From Candidatus Omnitrophota bacterium (lineage in GTDB: Bacteria; Omnitrophota; Gorgyraeia; Zapsychrales; Zapsychraceae): a DNA stretch of 64,000 nucleotides. Within the stretch, counting starts at the first letter, position 1, and each line of letters opens with the position of its first letter. This document shows positions 11,545 through 20,882 of the stretch, piece after piece. Location: contig JBFWOS010000001.1 of NCBI GenBank assembly GCA_050250375.1, positions 1,022,361 through 1,086,360 on the forward strand, in the 5' to 3' direction. The position numbers were made by a program, and so were the translations under genes. A model generated the notes under the pieces. The model was not told where the DNA came from. It searched no databases and saw nothing but the letters and a program-made list of their open reading frames with translations.

Positions 11545-11829
11545 CTACTGCTGCTCGTTAGCCACCACCGGAACCGGCGTGATGCGGTAGATCACTTCAC
11601 CGTCCCGGATGATGCCCATTTTTTCCCGGGCAACCTTCTCTAAATAAACGGGATCATCTTCCAGCTTGCGTTTTTCCTCTGTCAGTTCGGCGTTCTGGCG
11701 TTTCAGTTCGTAAATTTCCCTGAGGTATTCCCGGTTCTTCTCCTGAAGCATCTGCTTTTGGGAAAAGGTCGGCAGAAACAGCAACAAAATACCAATGGCA
11801 ACGGCAAATAACAAAAGAGATTTTTTCAT
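11545..11829 (-). CDS. ftsB: Cell division protein FtsB/DivIC (septum formation initiator)
   Basis: 94 aa with an N-terminal TM, a coiled coil (ELKRQNAELTEEKRKLEDDPVYLEKVAREKMGII), and the conserved eno-ftsB synteny. Confidence 0.78.
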   Translation of the reverse strand: MKKSLLLFAVAIGILLLFLPTFSQKQMLQEKNREYLREIYELKRQNAELTEEKRKLEDDPVYLEKVAREKMGIIRDGEVIYRITPVPVVANEQQ

Positions 11830-11890
11830 AACAGCGTCTGGTGTCCGGCGGAAAATATTTTTCTGTTCACTTCGCGCCTACCGCTAAAAT

Positions 11891-13162
11891 CTAATAAATC
11901 TTTCCCCACTTTGATCCAGCATAGACAGCCTTTTTGCCAAGCTCTTCTTCAATCCGCAGGAGTTCATTATATTTACACAAACGGTCCGTCCTTGACAAAG
12001 AACCGGTCTTGATCTGGCCGACTCCCGTGGCCACTGCGATATGCGCGATGGTTGTGTCTTCGGTTTCACCGGACCGGTGAGAAATGATTGAAGTGTACTT
12101 ATTATCCTTGGCCAGGCTGATCGCGTCAAGTGTTTCTGACAATGACCCGATCTGGTTGACCTTGATCAGGATTGAATTCGCCGCCTTTTCGTCGATGCCT
12201 TTCTTGAGCCGCTTGACGTTGGTAACAAAAAAATCGTCGCCGACCAGCTGGACACTGCCGCCGATCTTTTTGGTCATCGCCTTCCAGCCGTCCCAGTCAT
12301 TTTCGTCGAGGCCGTCTTCAATCGAAATCAGCGGCGATGTCTTGAGCATCTTGGCGTATACATCAATCATCTCGGCAACGGACAGTTTCTTTCCGTTGTA
12401 ACCGTATTTTTTATCTTTATAAAATTCACTGGAGGCCGCGTCAAGCGCGATGCAGATATCTTTTTTCGGTTTATAACCGGCTTTCTCGACCGCTTCAAGG
12501 ATAACCGCGATCCCTTCCTCATTGCTCTTTAGATTTGGAGCGAAACCGCCTTCATCCCCGACAGAGGTGGATAACTTGCGGTCATGCAGAATTTTCTTTA
12601 AGGTGTGAAAGACTTCACAGGCCATACGGATAGCTTCGGAAAACGTCTTCGCGCCGACCGGAGCGATCATGAATTCCTGGACATCCAGATTGTTGTCCGC
12701 GTGCGCACCGCCGTTGATAATATTCATTAACGGGACCGGAAGGATATTGGCTTCTTTTCCGCCTAGAAACTTATAAAGCGGTTTGCCTTCTTCTTTGGCC
12801 GCGGCCTGGGCCACCGCCATGGACACGCCTAAAATCGCGTTGGCGCCCAGTTTGCCCTTATTTTCCGTGCCGTCCAGTTTGATCAGTTTTTTATCAATCT
12901 TTTTAAAATCCGGTTCAAGACCAACCACCATATCCGCGATGGCCTTGTTGACATTGGCGACCGCTTTGGAAACGCCTTTGCCCATATATTTTGTTTTGTC
13001 GCCATCCCGTAATTCAATCGCCTCATGCTCACCGGTCGAAGCGCCGGATGGAACAGCCGCACGGCCCATCACCCCTGATTTGAGGATAACATCAACCTCA
13101 ACCGTCGGGTTCCCGCGGGAATCGATGATCTGCCGGCCTTTGATTTTCACTATTTTTGACAT
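11891..13162 (-). CDS. eno: Enolase (phosphopyruvate hydratase)
   Basis: [25 protein letters not shown]..., with catalytic and metal-binding motifs conserved throughout. Start set at 13162 with SD AGGAAACAGG. The 18-codon N-terminal extension is rejected. Confidence 0.96.
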
Positions 13163-13381
13163 AACCTGTTTCCTTATAATTGATTTAATTCCTGAAATAA
13201 ATCGTTTAGAACGCACAATCTATCATAGTTCCAAAACAAAGTCAAGCCCCTGCTGGATGATCCATGTTATTATGTCAAATAAATATAGATGAAAAGCAAT
13301 CGCAAGCTTTACAGGTGAAAATCATTTAATATATGATATACTTAGTTTGTTTAATATTAATAAAAAGATGAGGAGCGACCC

Positions 13382-16300
13382 TTGATCAATAAAATCATCA
13401 AATTCTTTAAAATCTATTGGATCAACCTTCTTTTATCTATTTGCATCATTAGTGTTGTAATTGGCATTGCCGTGTTTACCTGGTTTTGTATCGAAGGATT
13501 TTCCCATATGGAAGGCTTCAGCAAACGACAGGCCGCCGGGCAGATGGCCTTGCTGCTGCCGATGTTCATTATTGTGCATCTCGTTACTTTGCCGATCATG
13601 CTGGGTGCCCAATTCTTTATGCTTCATGGCGGCGGACTGGCTAAAATCCTGGGCGGTTCAGAATCCAGTAAATCCAAATCAAAAGTTCATTGGGATGAAG
13701 TCATCGGCATGGAAATGGCCAAACAGGATTCCTGGGAGATCGTTGAATTTTTAAGGAATAAAAAGAAACTCGCGGTGATCGGCGGGACAAACATGAAAGG
13801 GGCCTTGATGTTCGGCCCTCCGGGATGCGGAAAGACTTATCTGGCCAAGGCCATCGCGACCGAATCCCATTTACCGTTTCTCTCTACTGTCGGCTCAGAA
13901 TTTGTCACCATGCTCCAGGGGATGGGCGCCATGCGTATGAAATCAATGTTTAAAAAAGCCCGTAAACTGGCCAAGGTCGAGGGCGGCTGTATTATTTTTA
14001 TAGACGAAATTGACTCCTTTGCGCGTCCGCGTTCCGAGATTGAAACCGGCGGCGGAGCCACCACCAGTAATAACGCCACCATTAATCAATTTTTGACTGA
14101 GCTGGACGGCATGAAGAAAAAAGATGATAATATTTTTGTCCTGGCTGCCACCAATGTCGATGAATCGAAACTGGATCCGGCCGTTGTTCGTTCCGGACGG
14201 TTCGACCGGAAAATTCATATCGACAAACCCACCACCAGGGAACGCAAGGCCTTATTAAAATTTTATCTGGCAAAAGTTACTTATGATCAGAAAATTAACG
14301 TCGATGAAATCGCCGAACGTCTTCACGGATTTACACCTGCCGATGTTAACAGCCTGATTAAAGAAGCCGGCGCTATCGCTTTACGCAGCAACGCCAACCT
14401 TATAGAAACAAATCATTTTGAAAATGCTATTTCGCGCATGATGACGTCCAAAGAAAAGTCGCGCAGCAGTTCAACAATACAGCCCAAAGGCAAAGTGCGC
14501 TTCGACGATATAATCGGCATTGAAGAAGCAAAACAGCATGCCAAAGAGCTGGTCAATACGCTTAAAGACCGTCACCTGATGGAAAAAATTGGTGATAAAG
14601 CAACCCGCTGTTCCCTTCTTTTAGGACCATCCGGCTCAGGTAAGTCTTATTTGGCCAAGGCCATCGCGACAGAGGCCGATGTTCCGTTTTTAACTGTCAT
14701 GGGCAGTGAATTTATTGACCAGTTTATGAACCAGGGCCCGATAAAGATGCGTGAATTTTTCTCCGAGGCCCGTATGCTCGCTAAAGCTGAAGATGCCTGC
14801 CTGGTTTTTATTGATGAAATTGATGCCTTCGCCCGGAATCGGGAAAAAATGTTCGGTTATATGCAGAACCCTACGCTCGACCAATTTATCAGGGAATTGG
14901 ATGATCTGCGCCACAACAACATTAATATCATCGTTCTGGCGGCGACCAACCTAGCAGAAGAAGACTTAGACCAGGCGATATTAAAAATCGGCCGTTTTGA
15001 TCATAAAATTATCCTTGAATTACCGCGGGCCAAACAAAGAGAAGAAATTCTGCAGTACTTTTTGAAAAAAGAAAAGAAGACCGACGATATCGATTTAAAA
15101 TTATTGGCCAATAAAACACCCTCCTTTTCTCCGGCGGACTTAGAAAGCATGGTCAAAACCGCCAGTTTAAGTGCCTTACGGAATAAACGGGAAATGATCC
15201 ACATGTCGGACTTAAATTCGGCTTTAGTCGAGATTCAGGAAGATGTCAATAAACGCGGCGACATCAGCATGGCCAATACCAAGGTCAACATCCCCTGGAA
15301 TGAGGTCATCGGGATGGATGAAACCAAAAAGAACGCCTGGGAAATCGTTGAACTCTTAAAAGACCGCCGCAAACTTAAAGTGGTCGGCGGTAAGATTATC
15401 AAAGGGCTTCTGATGATTGGCCCTCCGGGTTGCGGTAAAACTTATCTGGCCAAGGCCATCGCGACAGAAGCTGGTTATCCATTTCTCAGCGTCGTCGGCA
15501 GTGAATTTGTGGACAAGTACGTCGGTGAAGGCGCCCGTAAGATCCGCGACCTCTTTGCTGCGGCACGCAGTCTGGCCAAAGCGGAAGGCGGATGCATTGT
15601 CTTTATTGATGAAATCGACGCCTTTATCAAACCGCGCACCAATGAGATGAACGGGAATACGAATTCGGAAAATGCCACGATTAACCAGTTTCTTGCCGAA
15701 CTCGACGGACTTGGACGGGCCGAAGACGGAAACGTCATCATCCTGGCCGCGACGAATATGCCTCCGGAAAGCCTGGACCCGGCGGTCATGCGTTCGGGAC
15801 GATTTGACAGAAAACTGGAAATTGTCAAACCGTCAGCCAAGGACCGTGAAGAACTCCTTAATTTTTATTTAACTAAAGTCGAAACAGACGGCGCGATCGA
15901 TGTAAAACTTTTATCTGAAAAGACAAAATGGTTTTCCGCCGCCGATATTAATAACATGGTCCGCGAGGCCGGAATCTTTGCCTTGCGTGAAAATAGAGAA
16001 AAGTTGTCCATGGATGACCTTAATAAAGGGATGAAACGGGTCATGGATTCGATCGAGAATATGGGAGAAGACAAAATCCTCGGAGACAAGGTAAATGTCA
16101 AATGGGAAGAAGTCATCGGTATGCCTGACGCCAAAGAAGAAGCGTTGGAAATCGTTAAAATGCTGAAAGACCGCAATATTGTTAAAGCCATCGGCGGCAA
16201 GATCGTCAAAGGGGTTGTTCTCTTCGGACCTCCGGGATGCGGAAAAACATATCTCGCCAAAGCCATGGCCACCGAGGCGGGCTTCCCTTTTATCTCTAAA

Positions 16301-17482
16301 GTCGGCAGCGAATTTGTCACGATGTGGGTCGGCGAAGGCGGAAAAAAGATGCGGGATATGTTCAAAGAAGCCCGCGCCTTGGCAAAAACTGAAGGCGGGT
16401 GTATCATCTTCATCGATGAAATAGATGCCTTTGCCAGACCCCGCGGATCCAACCAAAACAGCAGCAGCAACTCGGAAAACGCCACGATCAACCAATTCCT
16501 CACAGAAATGGATGGATTGAAAAACGAAAGCAACAATATCATGATCCTGGCGGCAACCAACGCGCGTGAGAACCAAATCGACCCTGCGGTTATGCGCGCA
16601 GGCCGCATTGAACGCAAAATTTACATCTCCCTGCCGACCCTGGAAGAACGTAAAGAACTGTTCAAGTTCTATTTCAGCCGGGTCAGCATCGCGGACGATG
16701 TAAGCCCGGACCGCTGGGCCCGTATCGCGGTGGGCACTTCTCCGTCGGACATCGACAGCATCGTGCGTGAAGGCGGTCTATTAGCGTTACGCGGCAAACG
16801 AGAATCAATTACCCACAAAGACTTAATGGAAGGTTATGATCGAATCACATTAGGCTCAGTGTCCCGGGAGAAATACAACAAGAAATCAATTATGAAAACA
16901 GCTTATCACGAATCCGGTCATGCAATTCTAACTTACCTTGTTCATCCTTCGAGTGAGGTGATCAAGGCTACGATTAAACCCCGCAAGGGTTCACTGGGCA
17001 TGATTCAAAACCGTCCGATTGAAGAACTCGCGCTGAATTCACCGAACAAAGAACAGTGGCTTTCCGAAATACAAATAATGCTGGCCGGGTACGTCGCCGA
17101 GAAACTCACCTTCGGCACAACCGCCTCCGGAGTTGGCGGCGGGCCGGGCAGTGATTTTCATCGGGCCATGAGCGTGGCCAATTATATGGTCCGCAGCCTT
17201 GGTATGGGGGCTTCCGGGCTGATCGGTGACTTTACCGCCATGGAAGAAGATGCTCTATCGGAAAGGACCAAAGTAATTCTCGAAAACGATGTCCAGGACA
17301 TCCTCCAGAGCTGTTTGAAAAAAACCACCGAAATCCTGACCGAATATAAGGCCGTCCTCGAATATTTTGCGCAGGAATTAATGGAAAAGGGCGATCTGGA
17401 ATATGATGACGTCCAGGACATCTTTAATAAATTTAAACTAAAGCCGGCCGCCGTCCGCCCTTCGACCATTGAGGAAGTTTAA
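13382..17482 (+). CDS. FtsH-like membrane AAA+ metalloprotease with four tandem AAA+ modules and one M41 peptidase domain
   Basis: TTG start with SD GAGGAG 7 nt upstream. Two TM helices at aa ~14-38 and ~55-80 with no periplasmic domain between them. Four FtsH-type units, each with an xxW/F[DE][DE]V/IIGM motif, Walker A, Walker B and SRH:
- aa ~102-370: Walker A GPPGCGKT.
- aa ~372-635: Walker A GPSGSGKS.
- aa ~637-905: Walker A GPPGCGKT.
- aa ~906-1160: Walker A GPPGCGKT.
Walker B is FIDEID in all four. The C-terminal M41 domain has HESGH zinc-binding, a downstream AGYVAEK, and a GSDFHRAMSVANYMV motif aligning to FtsH. Confidence 0.9.
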   Translation: MINKIIKFFKIYWINLLLSICIISVVIGIAVFTWFCIEGFSHMEGFSKRQAAGQMALLLPMFIIVHLVTLPIMLGAQFFMLHGGGLAKILGGSESSKSKSKVHWDEVIGMEMAKQDSWEIVEFLRNKKKLAVIGGTNMKGALMFGPPGCGKTYLAKAIATESHLPFLSTVGSEFVTMLQGMGAMRMKSMFKKARKLAKVEGGCIIFIDEIDSFARPRSEIETGGGATTSNNATINQFLTELDGMKKKDDNIFVLAATNVDESKLDPAVVRSGRFDRKIHIDKPTTRERKALLKFYLAKVTYDQKINVDEIAERLHGFTPADVNSLIKEAGAIALRSNANLIETNHFENAISRMMTSKEKSRSSSTIQPKGKVRFDDIIGIEEAKQHAKELVNTLKDRHLMEKIGDKATRCSLLLGPSGSGKSYLAKAIATEADVPFLTVMGSEFIDQFMNQGPIKMREFFSEARMLAKAEDACLVFIDEIDAFARNREKMFGYMQNPTLDQFIRELDDLRHNNINIIVLAATNLAEEDLDQAILKIGRFDHKIILELPRAKQREEILQYFLKKEKKTDDIDLKLLANKTPSFSPADLESMVKTASLSALRNKREMIHMSDLNSALVEIQEDVNKRGDISMANTKVNIPWNEVIGMDETKKNAWEIVELLKDRRKLKVVGGKIIKGLLMIGPPGCGKTYLAKAIATEAGYPFLSVVGSEFVDKYVGEGARKIRDLFAAARSLAKAEGGCIVFIDEIDAFIKPRTNEMNGNTNSENATINQFLAELDGLGRAEDGNVIILAATNMPPESLDPAVMRSGRFDRKLEIVKPSAKDREELLNFYLTKVETDGAIDVKLLSEKTKWFSAADINNMVREAGIFALRENREKLSMDDLNKGMKRVMDSIENMGEDKILGDKVNVKWEEVIGMPDAKEEALEIVKMLKDRNIVKAIGGKIVKGVVLFGPPGCGKTYLAKAMATEAGFPFISKVGSEFVTMWVGEGGKKMRDMFKEARALAKTEGGCIIFIDEIDAFARPRGSNQNSSSNSENATINQFLTEMDGLKNESNNIMILAATNARENQIDPAVMRAGRIERKIYISLPTLEERKELFKFYFSRVSIADDVSPDRWARIAVGTSPSDIDSIVREGGLLALRGKRESITHKDLMEGYDRITLGSVSREKYNKKSIMKTAYHESGHAILTYLVHPSSEVIKATIKPRKGSLGMIQNRPIEELALNSPNKEQWLSEIQIMLAGYVAEKLTFGTTASGVGGGPGSDFHRAMSVANYMVRSLGMGASGLIGDFTAMEEDALSERTKVILENDVQDILQSCLKKTTEILTEYKAVLEYFAQELMEKGDLEYDDVQDIFNKFKLKPAAVRPSTIEEV

Positions 17483-18561
17483 TGCCCCGGAAAATTCACG
17501 CATTATTCCTCATTGTCAGTCTAGGGAGTGTATTGTATATATCCGGATGCGCGAAAAAAGAAACTGTTGTTGAAGCCCCTACAACACCCGCTCATACCAA
17601 ACTCAGCGAACTCCTCGAAAAGGAATTCAAAATTCACGCCATTACCCGGGCTTTACCAAACACCCTTTGGATTTATATCCCGCTGGAAAAAACATTTTTT
17701 GAAGTTTCTTCCACTGACAAAGGACCGCAAAAGTCGTCCAACGCAACAAAGAGTTTAAACCTGCTTTATCTGGACGGTCAATTTGACGGAAAATACTTTA
17801 ATATAGAGTATGATGTCGGGGAATCAAAGAATTATTCCGATGATAAGGGCATCCAATCCAAGTACTCGGAGGAGTACAGCCGGATCAGCCGCACAATCCC
17901 GACGGCCATCCATACGGCCTATTCGGATATTGAACGCAAGGTCGGCAGCCATGACTACATCGAAAAAATTGCAGGCGACATCGACTTTCAGGATGAGCAC
18001 AAAAACACGACCCATAAGGCCCTGGTTCAATCCAATGTCCTGCAGGAACAAAAGGTTCCTGATTTCTTTGTCGTGGTTATCGCCGATATCGAAAAAGGCA
18101 TCGAATCCCGCTCATTGTTTTATTTACAGGATCTCCGCCGGGCCCACGTTGACCCGAACTTTATGGAAGAGTATGCCAAACGGGTCATCACCGATCAGCC
18201 CATCGGTCATTCGGTCATTATTGGCGATAAAACCGGCCAGTATGTTGACTATCATGATGTGACCTGGAATGAATTTCTGATGAAACAAATCCTAAACCGG
18301 ATCCGATTTCAATATCAGATGAGTTCCCATAAACCTGAATCCGGCGATTTCGATATTCTAAAGGACCTGGCCAATCAGGTCCTTCGGGCATACCCTCACC
18401 GGGATTATCAGGGCGTGAATTTTCTCAACCTTGAAACCAAAAAAGAATCCAGACTAAATGCGGATGCAATTGATGCCTATCAAGATTTTGACAGCAAAGA
18501 TCCAGGACGGATTCGTAATATCAAAGTAAATCTGGACGCCCCGGCCGAAAACGGCATTTAA
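17482..18561 (+). CDS. Lipoprotein of unknown function, translationally coupled to the tetra-AAA FtsH
   Basis: The ATG overlaps the upstream TAA (TAATG). Signal peptide with lipobox ISGC (MPRKIHALFLIVSLGSVLYISGC). 359 aa with no recognisable catalytic motif. Confidence 0.6.
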   Translation: MPRKIHALFLIVSLGSVLYISGCAKKETVVEAPTTPAHTKLSELLEKEFKIHAITRALPNTLWIYIPLEKTFFEVSSTDKGPQKSSNATKSLNLLYLDGQFDGKYFNIEYDVGESKNYSDDKGIQSKYSEEYSRISRTIPTAIHTAYSDIERKVGSHDYIEKIAGDIDFQDEHKNTTHKALVQSNVLQEQKVPDFFVVVIADIEKGIESRSLFYLQDLRRAHVDPNFMEEYAKRVITDQPIGHSVIIGDKTGQYVDYHDVTWNEFLMKQILNRIRFQYQMSSHKPESGDFDILKDLANQVLRAYPHRDYQGVNFLNLETKKESRLNADAIDAYQDFDSKDPGRIRNIKVNLDAPAENGI

Positions 18562-18608: not shown

Positions 18609-19220
18609 CTATTTCTCGATAATCTCAACCCGGCGGGCGCTGATCACTTTCAGGCATCCTTTTTCGTGCAGCGCGATGGCTTGTTTGAAAATCTTGTATT
18701 CGACTTTGTGGATTTTTTCGGTGAGAGACTCCAGCGTTTCATCATTGGCCACTTTAACCGTTTCCTGCAGGATGATCGGCCCGTTGTCCATCTTCTCGTT
18801 GACATAATGGACCGTAACCCCGGTCTGTTTGACCCCGTACGTAAACGCGTCTTTAATTCCGTTCGCCCCTTTAAAAGACGGCAATAAAGACGGATGGATA
18901 TTGATGATCCGGTTGGTATATTCCTTGATAAAATACGGTGTAAATATCACCATGTACCCGGCCGTGACAATAAAATCAATATTGGCCTGTTTGAGGTGGA
19001 TAACGACATCCCGTTCAAAACTCTGCGGGTTGGTATAATCTTTCGGATTGAGATGGAGGGTTTCAAGGCCGGCTTCCACGGCGAGTTTTAGCCCGCCGGA
19101 TTTGGGTTTGTTGGAAAATACCATGGCCAACTTGGACGTAATTTCCCCTTTGTTGACCGCCTCGATAATGGCTTTAAGATTGGTTCCTGCTCCTGATACA
19201 AAAACGGCAAATCTTTTCAT
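18609..19220 (-). CDS. purN: Phosphoribosylglycinamide formyltransferase
   Basis: 203 aa with MKRFAVFVSGAGTNL at the N-terminus, the INIHPSLLP motif, and a formyl-transferase fold pattern. Confidence 0.9.
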   Translation of the reverse strand: MKRFAVFVSGAGTNLKAIIEAVNKGEITSKLAMVFSNKPKSGGLKLAVEAGLETLHLNPKDYTNPQSFERDVVIHLKQANIDFIVTAGYMVIFTPYFIKEYTNRIINIHPSLLPSFKGANGIKDAFTYGVKQTGVTVHYVNEKMDNGPIILQETVKVANDETLESLTEKIHKVEYKIFKQAIALHEKGCLKVISARRVEIIEK

Positions 19221-19298
19221 TGAGTTTCACATTCGATCAGTAATTGGTCCGTTAGGCTAAAACTATTCTTACTAAGTATGCCACGTTCTTAAGAAATT

Positions 19299-20882
19299 TC
19301 AATCTTTTGTTGCCTTTATCATTTCCAGCTGACCAGCGATCTCTTTCGCTTTTTCGGTCTGGCCGCTCTCTTCATATTGCTCGATCAACCGGCTGTAAAC
19401 GTACTCTAAATTTCCTTTATACGAACCTTCAAGGATACCTACTTCCTTAACATTGCGATATTGGGCCAGGGCCTCTTCATATTTCCCCTGGTCGGCCAGG
19501 GCCTTGCCCAGACCGATCAGGGCCTTTGTATTATAGGGTTCATAATTCAGGGTCTGGCGGTAATGGTACTCCGCCTCTTCAAATTTTCCGGCATACCCAT
19601 AACATACCGCCAGGGAATTACGCACCCGGTGATTGCCAGGGTTATGTTCCAGGGACCGCTTAAACATGGCGATCTGGTTGGTCGCGTAGACATTCTGCTG
19701 AAGCAGGGTCAAAAATAAAAACAGGATATACCCGCCGACAAGGATTTGTTTGATCGACGGCTTTAAACTGCCGGGCCGTGAAAGAATGTTTTGAGTCACC
19801 GTCACCAGAAGGACGATCGCACCGATAACCGGCAGGTATAAAAAATGGTCGCTGGTCGAAATCCTTCCGCCGGGCGCGCGGATCGGGATGATCTGGGCGA
19901 CTGTGCCGAAATTAAGCACAATCCAGGATATAAAAAACAACAATGCCGCCGGTATCTTGCGGCGGTTCAGGAAAATCGCGGTAAAGACACCCGCCCACAC
20001 ACACAAAGAAAGCATCAATACCGGGTCCCCGGGGCGGACAAACAAAAGTGTCGTATGGTCATAATAAAAGTCAACCGGAAGCAGGATCTGCCGGGTGAAA
20101 TACAGGCAGGTTTTAAGAAATGTGCCTACCCCCAGCCATACTTCCAGCGGCGTATCCCAGGCGGTGACCCGGGTAATCCCCAGGAGGCGGCGGATGATAA
20201 AATAAAATACCATCAAAGCCATATACGGCCACAACAAACCGTACGACCGGCCTTTGTCTTTGTCCCGCATAAAAAAAAGATACCCGGCCAGGACAAACGG
20301 CAGCATGACCGCTGATTCTTTGGACAAAAGCGCCAGGATAAAACAAACCACCGATATATAATAGAAAGGATTCTTTTTATCCTGTGTTTCAAATTTGAGA
20401 AAACTGTAGAACGAAGACAGGAAAAAGAAGGAACACAGCAGGATGGAACGTCCCGGGATGTTGGACACAGCCTCCCAGTGCACGGGATGAATCACAAAGA
20501 TAAACGCGCTGAAAAAACCGGTTCTTTTATCTTTCATCAGCGACGTCACGATCCAAAAAACAAACAATGCATTACCGATGTGTAGAAATAAATTCGTCAA
20601 ATTGTAAAAAAAAGATTTCAGGGCGAACAGGTGAAATTCCGCCATAAAAGACACTAAAACCAGCGGCCGGTAATAAGATCCTTCCATAAAAAATGATGTC
20701 GTGAAAATCTCGCCGATACGGCTGATGTGTTTGATCCGGGGGTTGTTGACGATGGAGACCAGGTCGTCCATGGTCTTGAACTGGGTGGGCAAAACAACGG
20801 CATACCCGGCCAATCCGGCCAAAGCCAGGCACAGGATTATATTGCGGTTACGACTCAGTATTTTGGATAAGAATGAATTCAT
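19299..20882 (-). CDS. Polytopic membrane protein with C-terminal TPR repeats (TMTC/DUF1736-like)
   Basis: ~400 aa with more than 10 TM helices, followed by TPR-like repeats (AVCYGYAGKFEEAEYHYRQTLNYEPYNTKALIGLGKALADQGKYEEALAQY). Confidence 0.55.
   Translation of the reverse strand: MNSFLSKILSRNRNIILCLALAGLAGYAVVLPTQFKTMDDLVSIVNNPRIKHISRIGEIFTTSFFMEGSYYRPLVLVSFMAEFHLFALKSFFYNLTNLFLHIGNALFVFWIVTSLMKDKRTGFFSAFIFVIHPVHWEAVSNIPGRSILLCSFFFLSSFYSFLKFETQDKKNPFYYISVVCFILALLSKESAVMLPFVLAGYLFFMRDKDKGRSYGLLWPYMALMVFYFIIRRLLGITRVTAWDTPLEVWLGVGTFLKTCLYFTRQILLPVDFYYDHTTLLFVRPGDPVLMLSLCVWAGVFTAIFLNRRKIPAALLFFISWIVLNFGTVAQIIPIRAPGGRISTSDHFLYLPVIGAIVLLVTVTQNILSRPGSLKPSIKQILVGGYILFLFLTLLQQNVYATNQIAMFKRSLEHNPGNHRVRNSLAVCYGYAGKFEEAEYHYRQTLNYEPYNTKALIGLGKALADQGKYEEALAQYRNVKEVGILEGSYKGNLEYVYSRLIEQYEESGQTEKAKEIAGQLEMIKATKD

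What the first reader, a model, noticed from the sequence alone, without database searches (positions are those of the whole stretch)
13685..16890. The four AAA modules are not equivalent: alternating degeneration of pore loops and arginine fingers
Aligning each module to FtsH GSEFVEMFVGVGA and ...LDPALLRPGRFDR:
- Pore loop 1 aromatic: module 1 TMLQGMGA (F replaced by L), module 2 DQFMNQGP (F kept, G lost), module 3 DKYVGEGA (canonical Y-V-G), module 4 TMWVGEGG (canonical W-V-G).
- SRH: modules 1 and 3 keep LDPAV(V/M)RSGRFDRK. Module 2 has LDQAILKIGRFDHK (first R replaced by K). Module 4 has IDPAVMRAGRIERK (FD replaced by IE).
- Walker A: module 2 is GPSGSGKS rather than GPPGCGKT.
This suggests a division of labour: the two rings next to the protease are substrate-threading, and the membrane-proximal modules are regulatory or recognition. 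It also argues that the repeats are old and under distinct selection, not an assembly artefact.
Basis: seen in the sequence. Interest (0 to 1): 0.6.

Follow-up and report, generated by a model that had tools for sequence, protein, structure and literature searches.

The report
Four-ATPase-module FtsH-like membrane protease
An uncultured Omnitrophota bacterium encodes a membrane-anchored FtsH-type protease with four different ATPase motor modules in a row instead of one; the two nearest the membrane have altered substrate-gripping loops, and related bacteria carry 1-, 2-, 3- and 6-module versions at the same genomic spot.

Summary
The ORF (13382-17482, +, 1366 aa) is TM hairpin, four AAA+lid modules, then an intact M41 zinc protease.

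The modules are 39-54% identical in protein and at most 77% in DNA. Orthologues come from independent metagenomes, and all four modules are under purifying selection. It is not an assembly artefact.

"Alternating degeneration" is wrong. The pattern is polar:
- Module 1 has Leu at the pore-1 aromatic position.
- Module 2 has lost the pore-1 Gly and the Gly of the inter-subunit signalling (ISS) motif (DGL), has a shorter pore-2 loop, and has Lys at the first arginine of the RxxR pair.
- Modules 3 and 4 are canonical.
- Module 4's "GRIERK" is the signature of the protease-proximal module across the whole family. Both arginines are kept.
- The second arginine is intact in all four modules. The R-to-K change occurs only in the closest clade.

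A module tree gives four positional classes, A-B-C-D. Positional orthologues in the same slot (divIC-eno | gene | lipoprotein | purN) carry 1, 2, 3, 4 or 6 modules.

The most likely mechanism is four stacked hexameric rings. Rings C and D would be the core translocase. Ring A would be a weak-grip entry ring. Ring B would be a slow or structural ring. All of this is inferred and untested.

The parts
13382..17482 (+). Whole gene: 1366-aa FtsH-like protease with four AAA modules. TTG start with GAGGAG 8 nt upstream.
   Evidence: ORF list. Pfam finds 4x AAA, 4x AAA_lid_3 and 1x Peptidase_M41. TIGR01241 FtsH_fam scores 1155 bits. A 100% identical database protein is labelled MAG Candidatus Omnitrophota. 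The start agrees with orthologues P0002 and P0003.
13418..13621 (+). Membrane anchor: two hydrophobic segments (about aa 13-35 and 55-80) joined by a loop of about 15 aa. There is no periplasmic domain.
   Evidence: Kyte-Doolittle scan. E. coli FtsH has about 70 aa between its two segments. The same hairpin is present in relatives.
13679..14488 (+). AAA module 1 (class A, aa 100-369). Full ATPase motifs. Pore-1 is TM-L-Q-G, with Leu in place of the aromatic residue.
14489..15283 (+). AAA module 2 (class B, aa 370-634), the most divergent module. Walker A is GPSGSGKS. Pore-1 is Q-F-M-N (Gly lost). Pore-2 loop is 3-5 aa shorter than in modules 1, 3 and 4. ISS motif is LDDL (Gly lost). SRH is K-I-G-R (first Arg changed to Lys).
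   Evidence: The class B clade has 100% bootstrap.
15284..16090 (+). AAA module 3 (class C, aa 635-903). Fully canonical: pore-1 K-Y-V-G, SRH RSGRFDRK.
   Evidence: The class C clade has 98% bootstrap.
16091..16876 (+). AAA module 4 (class D, protease-proximal, aa 904-1165). Pore-1 is M-W-V-G. SRH is RAGRIERK, the class-D signature, with both Arg kept.
   Evidence: It aligns with p97 D2 TMWFGESE and RPGRLDQ.
16877..17479 (+). Peptidase M41 domain. HESGH lies at aa 1176-1180 (nt 16907-16921). The third-ligand Asp aligns with the Asp of the E. coli FtsH 'SNDI' motif.
   Evidence: Pfam PF01434, E=3e-32. Alignment with E. coli FtsH.
13907..13930 (+). Pore-1 loop of module 1 (TMLQGMGA).
14717..14740 (+). 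Pore-1 loop of module 2 (DQFMNQGP).
15512..15535 (+). Pore-1 loop of module 3 (DKYVGEGA).
16319..16342 (+). Pore-1 loop of module 4 (TMWVGEGG).
14966..15007 (+). SRH of module 2 (LDQAILKIGRFDHK). This is the only SRH with an Arg substitution.
17482..18561 (+). Co-oriented partner gene: a 359-aa predicted lipoprotein (lipobox ISGC). Its ATG overlaps the protease stop codon (TAATG).
   Evidence: Homologues (27-76% identity) sit downstream of the 2-, 3-, 4- and 6-module genes. A 324-aa unannotated ORF occupies the same position after the single-module gene (its sequence was not compared). No Pfam hit. No PDB fold match.

Best explanation
The gene encodes a membrane-anchored, ATP-dependent zinc protease of the FtsH lineage. 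Serial internal duplication has expanded its single AAA ring into four positionally specialised modules, A-B-C-D.

Inferred model:
- Six chains assemble so that each module class forms its own homotypic hexameric ring. This gives a four-tier stack between the membrane and the M41 chamber.
- Substrate enters at ring A and is pulled mainly by rings C and D. These keep the canonical aromatic-hydrophobic-Gly pore loops and are the slowest-evolving modules. Ring D is docked on the protease.
- Ring A keeps a complete ATPase site but has an aliphatic pore-1 residue, as in Cdc48/p97 D1. It would act as a lower-grip entry or engagement ring.
- Ring B keeps nucleotide-binding and Walker B residues. It has lost the pore-1 Gly and the ISS Gly, has a shorter pore-2 loop and, in this lineage, has Lys for the first SRH Arg. 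It would act as a slow-hydrolysing structural, spacer or regulatory ring.

Shown: architecture, motif states, their conservation, module classes, purifying selection and synteny.
Inferred: hexamer formation, stacking, which rings thread, and ATPase rates.
For: - Architecture and intact protease site.
- Motif registration against E. coli FtsH.
- Status of catalytic and pore residues in 120 relatives. Walker A Lys, Walker B DE and the R315-position Arg are intact in every module of all 4- and 6-module proteins. The last module is always canonical. First-module aromatic: 52/58 in 2-module proteins, 23/39 in 3-module, 0/7 in 4- and 6-module. Class B lacks the pore Gly and the ISS Gly in 7/7.
- Module tree: class B 100% bootstrap, class C 98%, last modules 66%.
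- Conservation gradient M1 63, M2 59, M3 73, M4 73%, with dN far below dS in all modules.
- Cis and trans elements of an ATP site degenerate together within the same module, in two independent events. The first is class B in the close clade, where Walker A changes and R312 becomes K. The second is the dead middle module of a distant 3-module clade: Walker B changes to SN, sensor-1 is lost, and the Arg and Asp of the SRH are lost, while its neighbours stay 39/39 intact. This is what homotypic ring interfaces predict.
- Precedent: eukaryotic Cdc48 D1 lacks the pore aromatic while D2 keeps it, and changing the first or third pore-loop residue of FtsH to Ala abolishes unfolding (PMC5511170).
- p97 D1 SKLAGESE and D2 TMWFGESE align with modules 2 and 4; module 1 shares the Leu of p97 D1 at that position.
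Against: - No experimental data exist.
- AF2 of the four-module stack gave pTM 0.33 with all linkers below pLDDT 50. p97 D1-D2 superposed only at 12-14 A rmsd. The stacking geometry is therefore unverified.
- An aliphatic pore-1 residue does not preclude threading. Paraplegin, a bona fide m-AAA protease subunit, has Ile there (PMC2734466).
- The R-to-K change is conservative, affects only the first Arg of RxxR, and is absent from distant four-module orthologues. Ring B may be a normal ATPase in most lineages.
- Only 6 four-module sequence clusters exist, and 4 of them are closely related.
- The bootstrap support for the first-module class is weak (21%).
Confidence: 0.55

Rival explanations
1. 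All four rings are active, cooperating translocases in a stacked hexamer. The pore-loop and SRH differences only tune grip. There is no qualitative division into threading and regulatory rings.
For: - Every module keeps Walker A Lys, Walker B DE, sensor-1 Asn (one His exception) and the R315-position Arg.
- All four modules are under strong purifying selection.
- Hydrophobic non-aromatic pore residues occur in functional m-AAA subunits, for example paraplegin Ile.
- Module 2 keeps an aromatic residue (F/Y in 7/7).
- Distant four-module orthologues keep both arginines in module 2.
Against: - Pore-1 Gly is needed for unfolding by FtsH (PMC5511170 citing Yamada-Inagawa 2003), and it is lost in 7/7 class B modules.
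- Class B has also lost the ISS Gly and 3-5 aa of the pore-2 loop.
- Modules 1 and 2 evolve faster than modules 3 and 4.
- Loss of the first-module aromatic tracks the number of modules. This suggests relaxed need for grip at the entry ring once more rings are present.
Confidence: 0.27
2. The modules are not stacked as four homotypic rings. Consecutive modules of one chain sit side by side in a ring, as in dynein or midasin, or as covalently fused Pex1/Pex6-like alternation. Fewer chains would then build one or two pseudo-hexameric rings, with fewer than six protease domains.
For: - Module numbers 1, 2, 3 and 6 at the same locus all divide six.
- The AF2 model does not give a p97-like D1-D2 protomer.
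- Inter-module linkers of about 10-15 disordered residues could span either arrangement.
Against: - Four does not divide six.
- In FtsH the AAA N-terminus faces the membrane and the lid C-terminus faces the protease, so tandem repeats naturally stack (established FtsH structures, from my own knowledge).
- Cis and trans active-site elements co-degenerate within one module while neighbouring modules keep perfectly conserved arginines and Walker B. That fits homotypic interfaces, not heterotypic ones.
- M41 proteases are known only as six-fold rings.
Confidence: 0.12
3. The four-module gene is an assembly or gene-calling artefact, or a decaying pseudogene.
For: Tandem repeats can be mis-assembled from metagenomes. 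The data come from MAGs.
Against: - The repeats are at most 77% identical in DNA even in their best stretches.
- The reading frame is uninterrupted over 1366 codons.
- The identical protein occurs on 2 contigs. Orthologues of 89, 78, 59 and 57% identity and the same length come from independent samples.
- dN/dS is about 0.01-0.07.
- Synteny is conserved.
Confidence: 0.01

Closest known systems
FtsH / YME1 / AFG3L2 (membrane-anchored AAA + M41 zinc proteases)
   Same: - N-terminal membrane anchor, classic-clade AAA module with SRH RxxR, AAA_lid_3, and a C-terminal M41 domain with HExxH and a third-ligand Asp.
- Module 4 plus M41 aligns end to end with solved FtsH and AFG3L2 chains (7zbh, 4ww0, 6nyy, 2dhr; E about 1e-72 to 1e-79).
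- TIGR01241 scores above its cutoff.
   Different: - Four AAA+lid modules per chain instead of one.
- No periplasmic domain; the TM hairpin has a loop of about 15 aa.
- The ISS motif is DG(L/M) rather than DGF.
- A dedicated downstream lipoprotein partner.
p97 / Cdc48 / VAT / NVL / Rix7 (type II classic-clade tandem AAA unfoldases)
   Same: - Best overall sequence and fold matches, because two modules align at once.
- The N-terminal module has a non-aromatic pore-1 residue (p97 D1 L-A-G; module 1 here is L-Q-G). The C-terminal module has W-x-G (p97 D2 TMWFGES; module 4 here is TMWVGEG).
- Cdc48 D1 has lost the aromatic during evolution, and D2 is the main motor (PMC5511170).
   Different: - No CDC48-type N domain.
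- Membrane anchored.
- Four modules rather than two.
- A covalently attached protease.
- TIGR01243 scores 697 bits, below its 802 cutoff.
NSF D2 / ClpA-ClpB-type two-ring machines
   Same: The concept of one ring specialised for assembly or slow hydrolysis and another for work. This is my own knowledge and was not tested here.
   Different: Those machines have two rings only. The Clp rings belong to different AAA+ clades. Here all four modules are classic-clade paralogues.
Omnitrophota multi-AAA FtsH-like relatives (1-, 2-, 3- and 6-module, and (AAA-M41)x2 forms)
   Same: - Same syntenic slot, TM hairpin, partner lipoprotein, class A first module and class D last module with RAGR(I/L)ERK.
- I found no publication describing them.
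   Different: - Module number differs.
- Class B occurs only in the 4- and 6-module forms.
- A distant 3-module clade has a fully dead middle module.
- 16 relatives duplicate the whole AAA-M41 unit.
Dynein / midasin (several AAA modules in one chain forming one ring)
   Same: Several non-equivalent AAA modules in one polypeptide, some of them degenerate.
   Different: They belong to a different AAA+ clade, form a single ring from one chain, and have no protease. The co-degeneration pattern here argues for homotypic rings.

Membership tests
FtsH family (AAA + peptidase M41; TIGR01241) | C-terminal M41 metalloprotease domain with HExxH and a third zinc ligand Asp | tested here: met
   PF01434 at aa 1167-1347, E=3e-32. 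HESGH at aa 1176. An Asp aligns with the Asp of E. coli 'SNDI'.
FtsH family (AAA + peptidase M41; TIGR01241) | Classic-clade AAA module with Walker A, Walker B, sensor-1 Asn and the SRH RxxR pair | tested here: met
   Present four times. The only change in these residues is module 2's first Arg, which is Lys.
FtsH family (AAA + peptidase M41; TIGR01241) | N-terminal transmembrane anchor | tested here: met
   Two hydrophobic segments within aa 5-82. This is a hydropathy scan only, not a dedicated TM predictor.
FtsH family (AAA + peptidase M41; TIGR01241) | Curated whole-protein score cutoff | tested here: met
   TIGR01241 scores 1155 bits against a cutoff of 600, but the score is inflated by four AAA stretches. 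NF008004 (E. coli-type FtsH equivalog) scores 832, below its 1008 cutoff.
FtsH family (AAA + peptidase M41; TIGR01241) | One AAA module per chain, giving a single AAA ring on a protease ring | tested here: not met
   Four AAA+lid modules.
FtsH family (AAA + peptidase M41; TIGR01241) | Periplasmic/extracytoplasmic domain between TM1 and TM2 | tested here: not met
   The loop between the hydrophobic segments is about 15 aa, against about 70 aa in E. coli.
FtsH family (AAA + peptidase M41; TIGR01241) | Homo-hexameric assembly with ATP-dependent proteolysis | not testable with these tools
   Needs biochemistry or cryo-EM.
Cdc48/p97 family (TIGR01243) | Curated score cutoff, CDC48-type N domain, and exactly two AAA modules | tested here: not met
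   697 bits against a cutoff of 802. No CDC48_N among the 25 best Pfam hits shown, and the region before module 1 (aa 1-99) is taken up by the TM hairpin and a short linker. Four modules plus M41.
Type II (stacked tandem-ring) AAA+ unfoldases, as a working analogy | Consecutive modules of a protomer sit in successive stacked rings (D1-over-D2 geometry) | tested here: inconclusive
   AF2 pTM 0.33. p97, NVL and Rix7 align over about 560 columns but at 12-14 A rmsd. Indirect support comes from cis/trans co-degeneration within one module.

The most novel reading that the evidence does not exclude
This protein and its positional orthologues form a natural series of one AAA+ protease built with 1, 2, 3, 4 or 6 stacked hexameric ATPase rings. 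A four-ring machine has 24 ATP sites and a six-ring machine has 36. These would be the first AAA+ machines with more than two stacked rings. Rings added internally would be specialised, or progressively inactivated, as spacers or regulators, and the machine would work with a dedicated lipoprotein of unknown fold.
Probability: 0.45. Interest if true: 0.8.

Novelty: new variant of a known kind. Interest (0 to 1): 0.6.

Why it matters
All well-studied AAA+ unfoldases and proteases have one or two ATPase rings. How extra rings change grip, processivity and unfolding force is an open mechanistic question, usually addressed with engineered mutants. Here evolution supplies an orthologous series with 1, 2, 3, 4 and 6 modules. 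The series is in the same genomic slot and has the same anchor, protease and partner. The modules fall into clear positional classes and show graded loss of pore-loop and active-site elements in the internal and entry modules. That makes the question directly testable by expressing the series and mutating ring by ring. It also shows that database labels such as 'AAA family ATPase' hide a distinctive Omnitrophota protease family, which has a conserved lipoprotein partner of unknown fold.

Tried and rejected
- **AF2 of aa 100-1165 with a six-sequence orthologue alignment.** The modules fold (pLDDT 70-90), but pTM is 0.33 and the linkers are below 50. Foldseek against PDB superposes p97 D1-D2 only at 12-14 A rmsd. 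This gives no information on stacking.
- **Genome-contig scan with module 2.** It found no hit because the patterns were too specific. It says nothing about the taxonomic spread of class B.
- **Per-module dN/dS.** dS is saturated (pS 0.56-0.86) even for the closest pair. Only 'dN far below dS in all modules' is reliable, and ratios between modules are not.
- **The search of protein representatives with module 2.** The 50% clustering collapses all four-module proteins into one representative, so it adds no new class-B sequences. It did show many other 2- and 3-AAA + M41 clusters.
- **Literature.** Searches for multi-AAA FtsH and for Omnitrophota FtsH found no description.
- **Rejected: assembly artefact or pseudogene.** See the rival explanations.
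- **Rejected: the reading of module 4 'IE' as degeneration.** It is the class-D signature in 2of2, 3of3, 4of4 and 6of6.

Full report
**What is there**

The finding lies inside one uninterrupted ORF, window 13382..17482 on the + strand, 1366 aa. The start is TTG with GAGGAG 8 nt upstream.

- Pfam finds four AAA cores (PF00004), four AAA_lid_3 domains and one C-terminal Peptidase_M41 at aa 1167-1347.
- NCBIfam's FtsH family model TIGR01241 scores 1155 bits in four stretches.
- The N-terminus has two hydrophobic segments within aa 5-82, joined by a loop of only about 15 residues. E. coli FtsH has about 70 residues there, so this protein has no periplasmic domain.
- The protease site is intact: HESGH plus an Asp aligned with the third-ligand Asp of E. 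coli FtsH.
- tblastn with E. coli FtsH finds no other FtsH homologue in the window.
- A 100% identical database protein is labelled 'MAG: AAA family ATPase [Candidatus Omnitrophota bacterium]'.

**Checking the observation**

It fails.

- MAFFT aligns the four modules without gaps through Walker A, pore-1, Walker B, ISS (the DGF/DGL inter-subunit signalling motif), sensor-1 and SRH.
- An HMM alignment that includes E. coli K-12 FtsH (fetched) puts TMLQGMGA, DQFMNQGP, DKYVGEGA and TMWVGEGG opposite EMFVGVGA. It puts the four SRH strings opposite LDPALLRPGRFDRQ.
- The RefSeq FtsH numbering is three lower than the classical numbering F228, G230, D307, R312, R315.

At the F228 position the four modules have L, F, Y and W. 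At G230 they have G, N, G and G. At R312 they have R, K, R and R. At R315 they have R in all four.

**Not an artefact**

- The modules are 39-54% identical in protein, and module 2 is the outlier. They are at most 77% identical in DNA even in their best-conserved stretches.
- Four-module orthologues of 89, 78, 59 and 57% identity and nearly the same length (1367-1379 aa) come from independent JGI, Logan and NCBI assemblies.
- Nei-Gojobori estimates give dN far below dS in every module. For the closest pair dN/dS is about 0.01-0.07, but dS is saturated, so only the qualitative result is reliable.

**Where 'alternating degeneration' goes wrong**

I segmented all 120 best database relatives into AAA modules. 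This gave 74 two-module, 39 three-module, 6 four-module and 1 six-module protein. I then tabulated the catalytic and pore residues by position.

- *Module 4.* 'GRIERK' is not degeneration. RAGR(I/L/F)ERK is the signature of the last, protease-proximal module in the 2-, 3-, 4- and 6-module proteins alike, and both arginines are present. p97 D2 likewise has RPGRLDQ.
- *Arginines.* The only arginine change in the protein is Lys at the R312 position of module 2. The R315-position Arg, which the paraplegin structure paper calls the arginine finger of the RxxR pair (PMC2734466), is intact in all four modules.
- *Lineage restriction.* The R-to-K change and the unusual Walker A (GPSGSGKS or GPTGAGKT) are confined to the close clade P0001/2/3/5. 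The more distant four-module orthologues P0006 and P0011 and the six-module P0004 have R and a standard P-loop (GPPGCGKT in P0006 and P0011, GAPGVGKT in P0004).
- *What is conserved.* Module 1 has an aliphatic residue (L, V or I) at the aromatic position in 7/7 four- and six-module proteins. In module 2 the pore-1 Gly and the Gly of the ISS motif (DGL changed to D-D/E-L) are lost in 7/7. Its pore-2 loop is 3-5 residues shorter than in modules 1, 3 and 4 of the same protein.

Modules 3 and 4 are canonical throughout. The pattern is therefore polar, with modules 1 and 2 deviant and modules 3 and 4 canonical. It does not alternate.

**Module classes and the family**

A neighbour-joining tree of 93 modules with 200 bootstraps, rooted on E. 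coli FtsH, groups modules by position rather than by protein.

| Class | Members | Bootstrap |
|---|---|---|
| B | 2of4 + 2of6 | 100% |
| C | 3of4 + 3of6 + 4of6 + 5of6 + most 2of3 | 98% |
| D | all last modules | 66% |
| A | all first modules | 21% |

The architectures therefore read A-D, A-C-D, A-B-C-D and A-B-C-C-C-D. Modules 3 and 4 of the six-module protein are 78% identical, which indicates a recent class-C duplication.

All these genes occupy the same slot: divIC-like and enolase on the minus strand, then the protease, then an unannotated ORF of about 290-360 aa, then purN. A 564-aa single-AAA member (P0176) sits there too. The locus thus gives a natural series of positional orthologues with 1, 2, 3, 4 and 6 modules.

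- The aromatic pore residue of the first module is kept in 52/58 two-module proteins, 23/39 three-module proteins and 0/7 four- and six-module proteins. Fisher p is 3e-5, not corrected for phylogeny.
- Among the five full-length four-module orthologues, mean pairwise identity is 63, 59, 73 and 73% for modules 1 to 4. The protease-proximal pair is the more constrained.

**How it most likely works (inferred)**

In FtsH the AAA N-terminus faces the membrane and the lid C-terminus leads down into the protease (my own knowledge of FtsH structures). Tandem repeats joined by short linkers would therefore be expected to stack. The linkers here are about 10-15 disordered residues.

I could not confirm this structurally. 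AF2 of aa 100-1165 folds each module (pLDDT 70-90) but gives pTM 0.33. p97, NVL and Rix7 D1-D2 protomers superpose only at 12-14 A rmsd.

Indirect support for homotypic stacked rings comes from two independent evolutionary events. In each, the cis and trans halves of an ATP site change together in one module while the neighbouring modules stay intact.

- In class B of the close clade, Walker A changes and R312 becomes K.
- In the middle module of a distant three-module clade, Walker B DE changes to SN, the sensor-1 Asn is lost, and the SRH loses D307 and R312. Its first and last modules keep Walker B, sensor-1 and both arginines in essentially all 39 proteins.

If modules of one chain were neighbours within a ring, a dead module's lost arginine would cripple an otherwise perfectly conserved neighbour.

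On this basis I propose a four-tier hexamer.

- Rings C and D are the core translocase. They have canonical aromatic-hydrophobic-Gly loops and are the most conserved.
- Ring A is a complete ATPase with a weak-grip entry pore.
- Ring B binds nucleotide but is a poor threader, and in this lineage probably a slow hydrolyser.

The closest functional precedent is Cdc48/p97. D1 has lost the pore aromatic in evolution, D2 is the main motor, and alanine substitution of the first or third pore-loop residue of FtsH abolishes unfolding (PMC5511170). Module 1's L-Q-G and module 4's TMWVGEG mirror p97 D1 L-A-G and D2 TMWFGES.

**Caveats and rivals**

- An aliphatic pore residue does not exclude threading; paraplegin has Ile at that position.
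- K for R is conservative and is restricted to one lineage.
- All modules keep Walker A Lys and Walker B Asp-Glu.

A model in which all four rings translocate, with tuned grip, therefore remains plausible (about 0.27). An in-ring arrangement is less likely (about 0.12). An artefact is excluded.

**Comparison with what is known**

The protein passes the FtsH-family tests for the M41 site, AAA motifs, membrane anchor and the TIGR01241 cutoff. It fails 'one AAA module per chain' and 'periplasmic domain'. It falls below the E. coli-type FtsH equivalog cutoff and the CDC48 cutoff. It is best described as a new architectural variant within the FtsH lineage that works like a type II (tandem) AAA unfoldase fused to a protease.

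- Among the best-scoring 147 representatives of the 1.84-billion-protein library, 30 have two AAA modules plus M41 and 8 have three plus M41. Some of the three-module ones come from Thermoleophilaceae. The only one with four plus M41 is the single cluster that holds this protein.
- Full-text searches found no paper describing multi-AAA FtsH proteins or the Omnitrophota family. That library is incomplete, so prior description cannot be excluded.

**Verdict**

- The sequence facts are right.
- The summary word 'alternating' and the reading of module 4 are wrong.
- The core idea is supported by comparative data: ancient, non-equivalent modules, with the protease-proximal pair as the canonical motor. 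It remains mechanistically untested.

Noticed in passing
window 17482-18561 (+): A 359-aa predicted lipoprotein (lipobox ISGC) whose ATG overlaps the protease stop codon (TAATG). Homologues (27-76% identity, invariant Cys) follow the 2-, 3-, 4- and 6-module genes, and a 324-aa unannotated ORF follows the single-module gene. There are 36 database homologues; none has a functional annotation and the few that are named are Omnitrophota hypothetical proteins. No Pfam hit. The AF2 model is confident (pLDDT 84.5, pTM 0.78) but has no PDB Foldseek match (best E=0.1, TM at most 0.18). It may be a periplasmic partner of a protease that lacks its own periplasmic domain.
   Followed up: partly
window 16091-16876 (module 4) compared with L002 and L004: Mosaic signal. 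The window protein is 91-97% identical to P0002 in modules 1-3 and M41, but only 80.5% in module 4. It is 68-80% identical to P0003 elsewhere, but 92.4% in module 4. This suggests recombination or gene conversion of the module-4 segment between lineages.
   Followed up: no
relatives P0060, P0068, P0074, P0076, P0086, P0089, P0092, P0095, P0100, P0107, P0109, P0111-P0113, P0116, P0120 (1008-1027 aa): A different architecture in the same family: TM - AAA - M41 - AAA - M41. The roughly 185-aa 'insert' between the two AAA modules begins AYHESGH, so it is a second, internal protease domain.
   Followed up: partly
relatives P0051, P0058, P0059, P0061, P0063, P0067, P0070, P0075, P0087 (3-module, 42-45% identity): The middle module is catalytically dead although Walker A is kept. 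Walker B IDEID becomes I/VSNID, sensor-1 ATN becomes ETC or ETS, the pore-1 motif is lost, and the SRH is LSKQLIKPNRFSQK. The first and last modules stay canonical.
   Followed up: partly
L007 6001-11586 (P0004, 1861 aa, GCA_029261065.1): A six-AAA-module orthologue in the same syntenic slot, with architecture A-B-C-C-C-D. Modules 3 and 4 are 78% identical, indicating a recent internal duplication.
   Followed up: partly
L090 3671-5365 (P0176, 564 aa): A single-AAA member of the same family in the same slot (divIC-eno | gene | 324-aa ORF). It completes a 1-2-3-4-6 module series.
   Followed up: partly
proteins P0125 and P0273-P0275: Three AAA modules plus M41 also occur in Thermoleophilaceae (Actinomycetota) MAGs. 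Multi-AAA FtsH-like proteins are therefore not confined to Omnitrophota.
   Followed up: no
window 11545-13216 (-) and 18609-20882 (-): Conserved neighbours: a DivIC/FtsB-like gene and enolase upstream on the opposite strand; purN (Formyl_trans_N) and a PMT_2/TPR membrane protein downstream. The order is kept across orthologous loci.
   Followed up: partly
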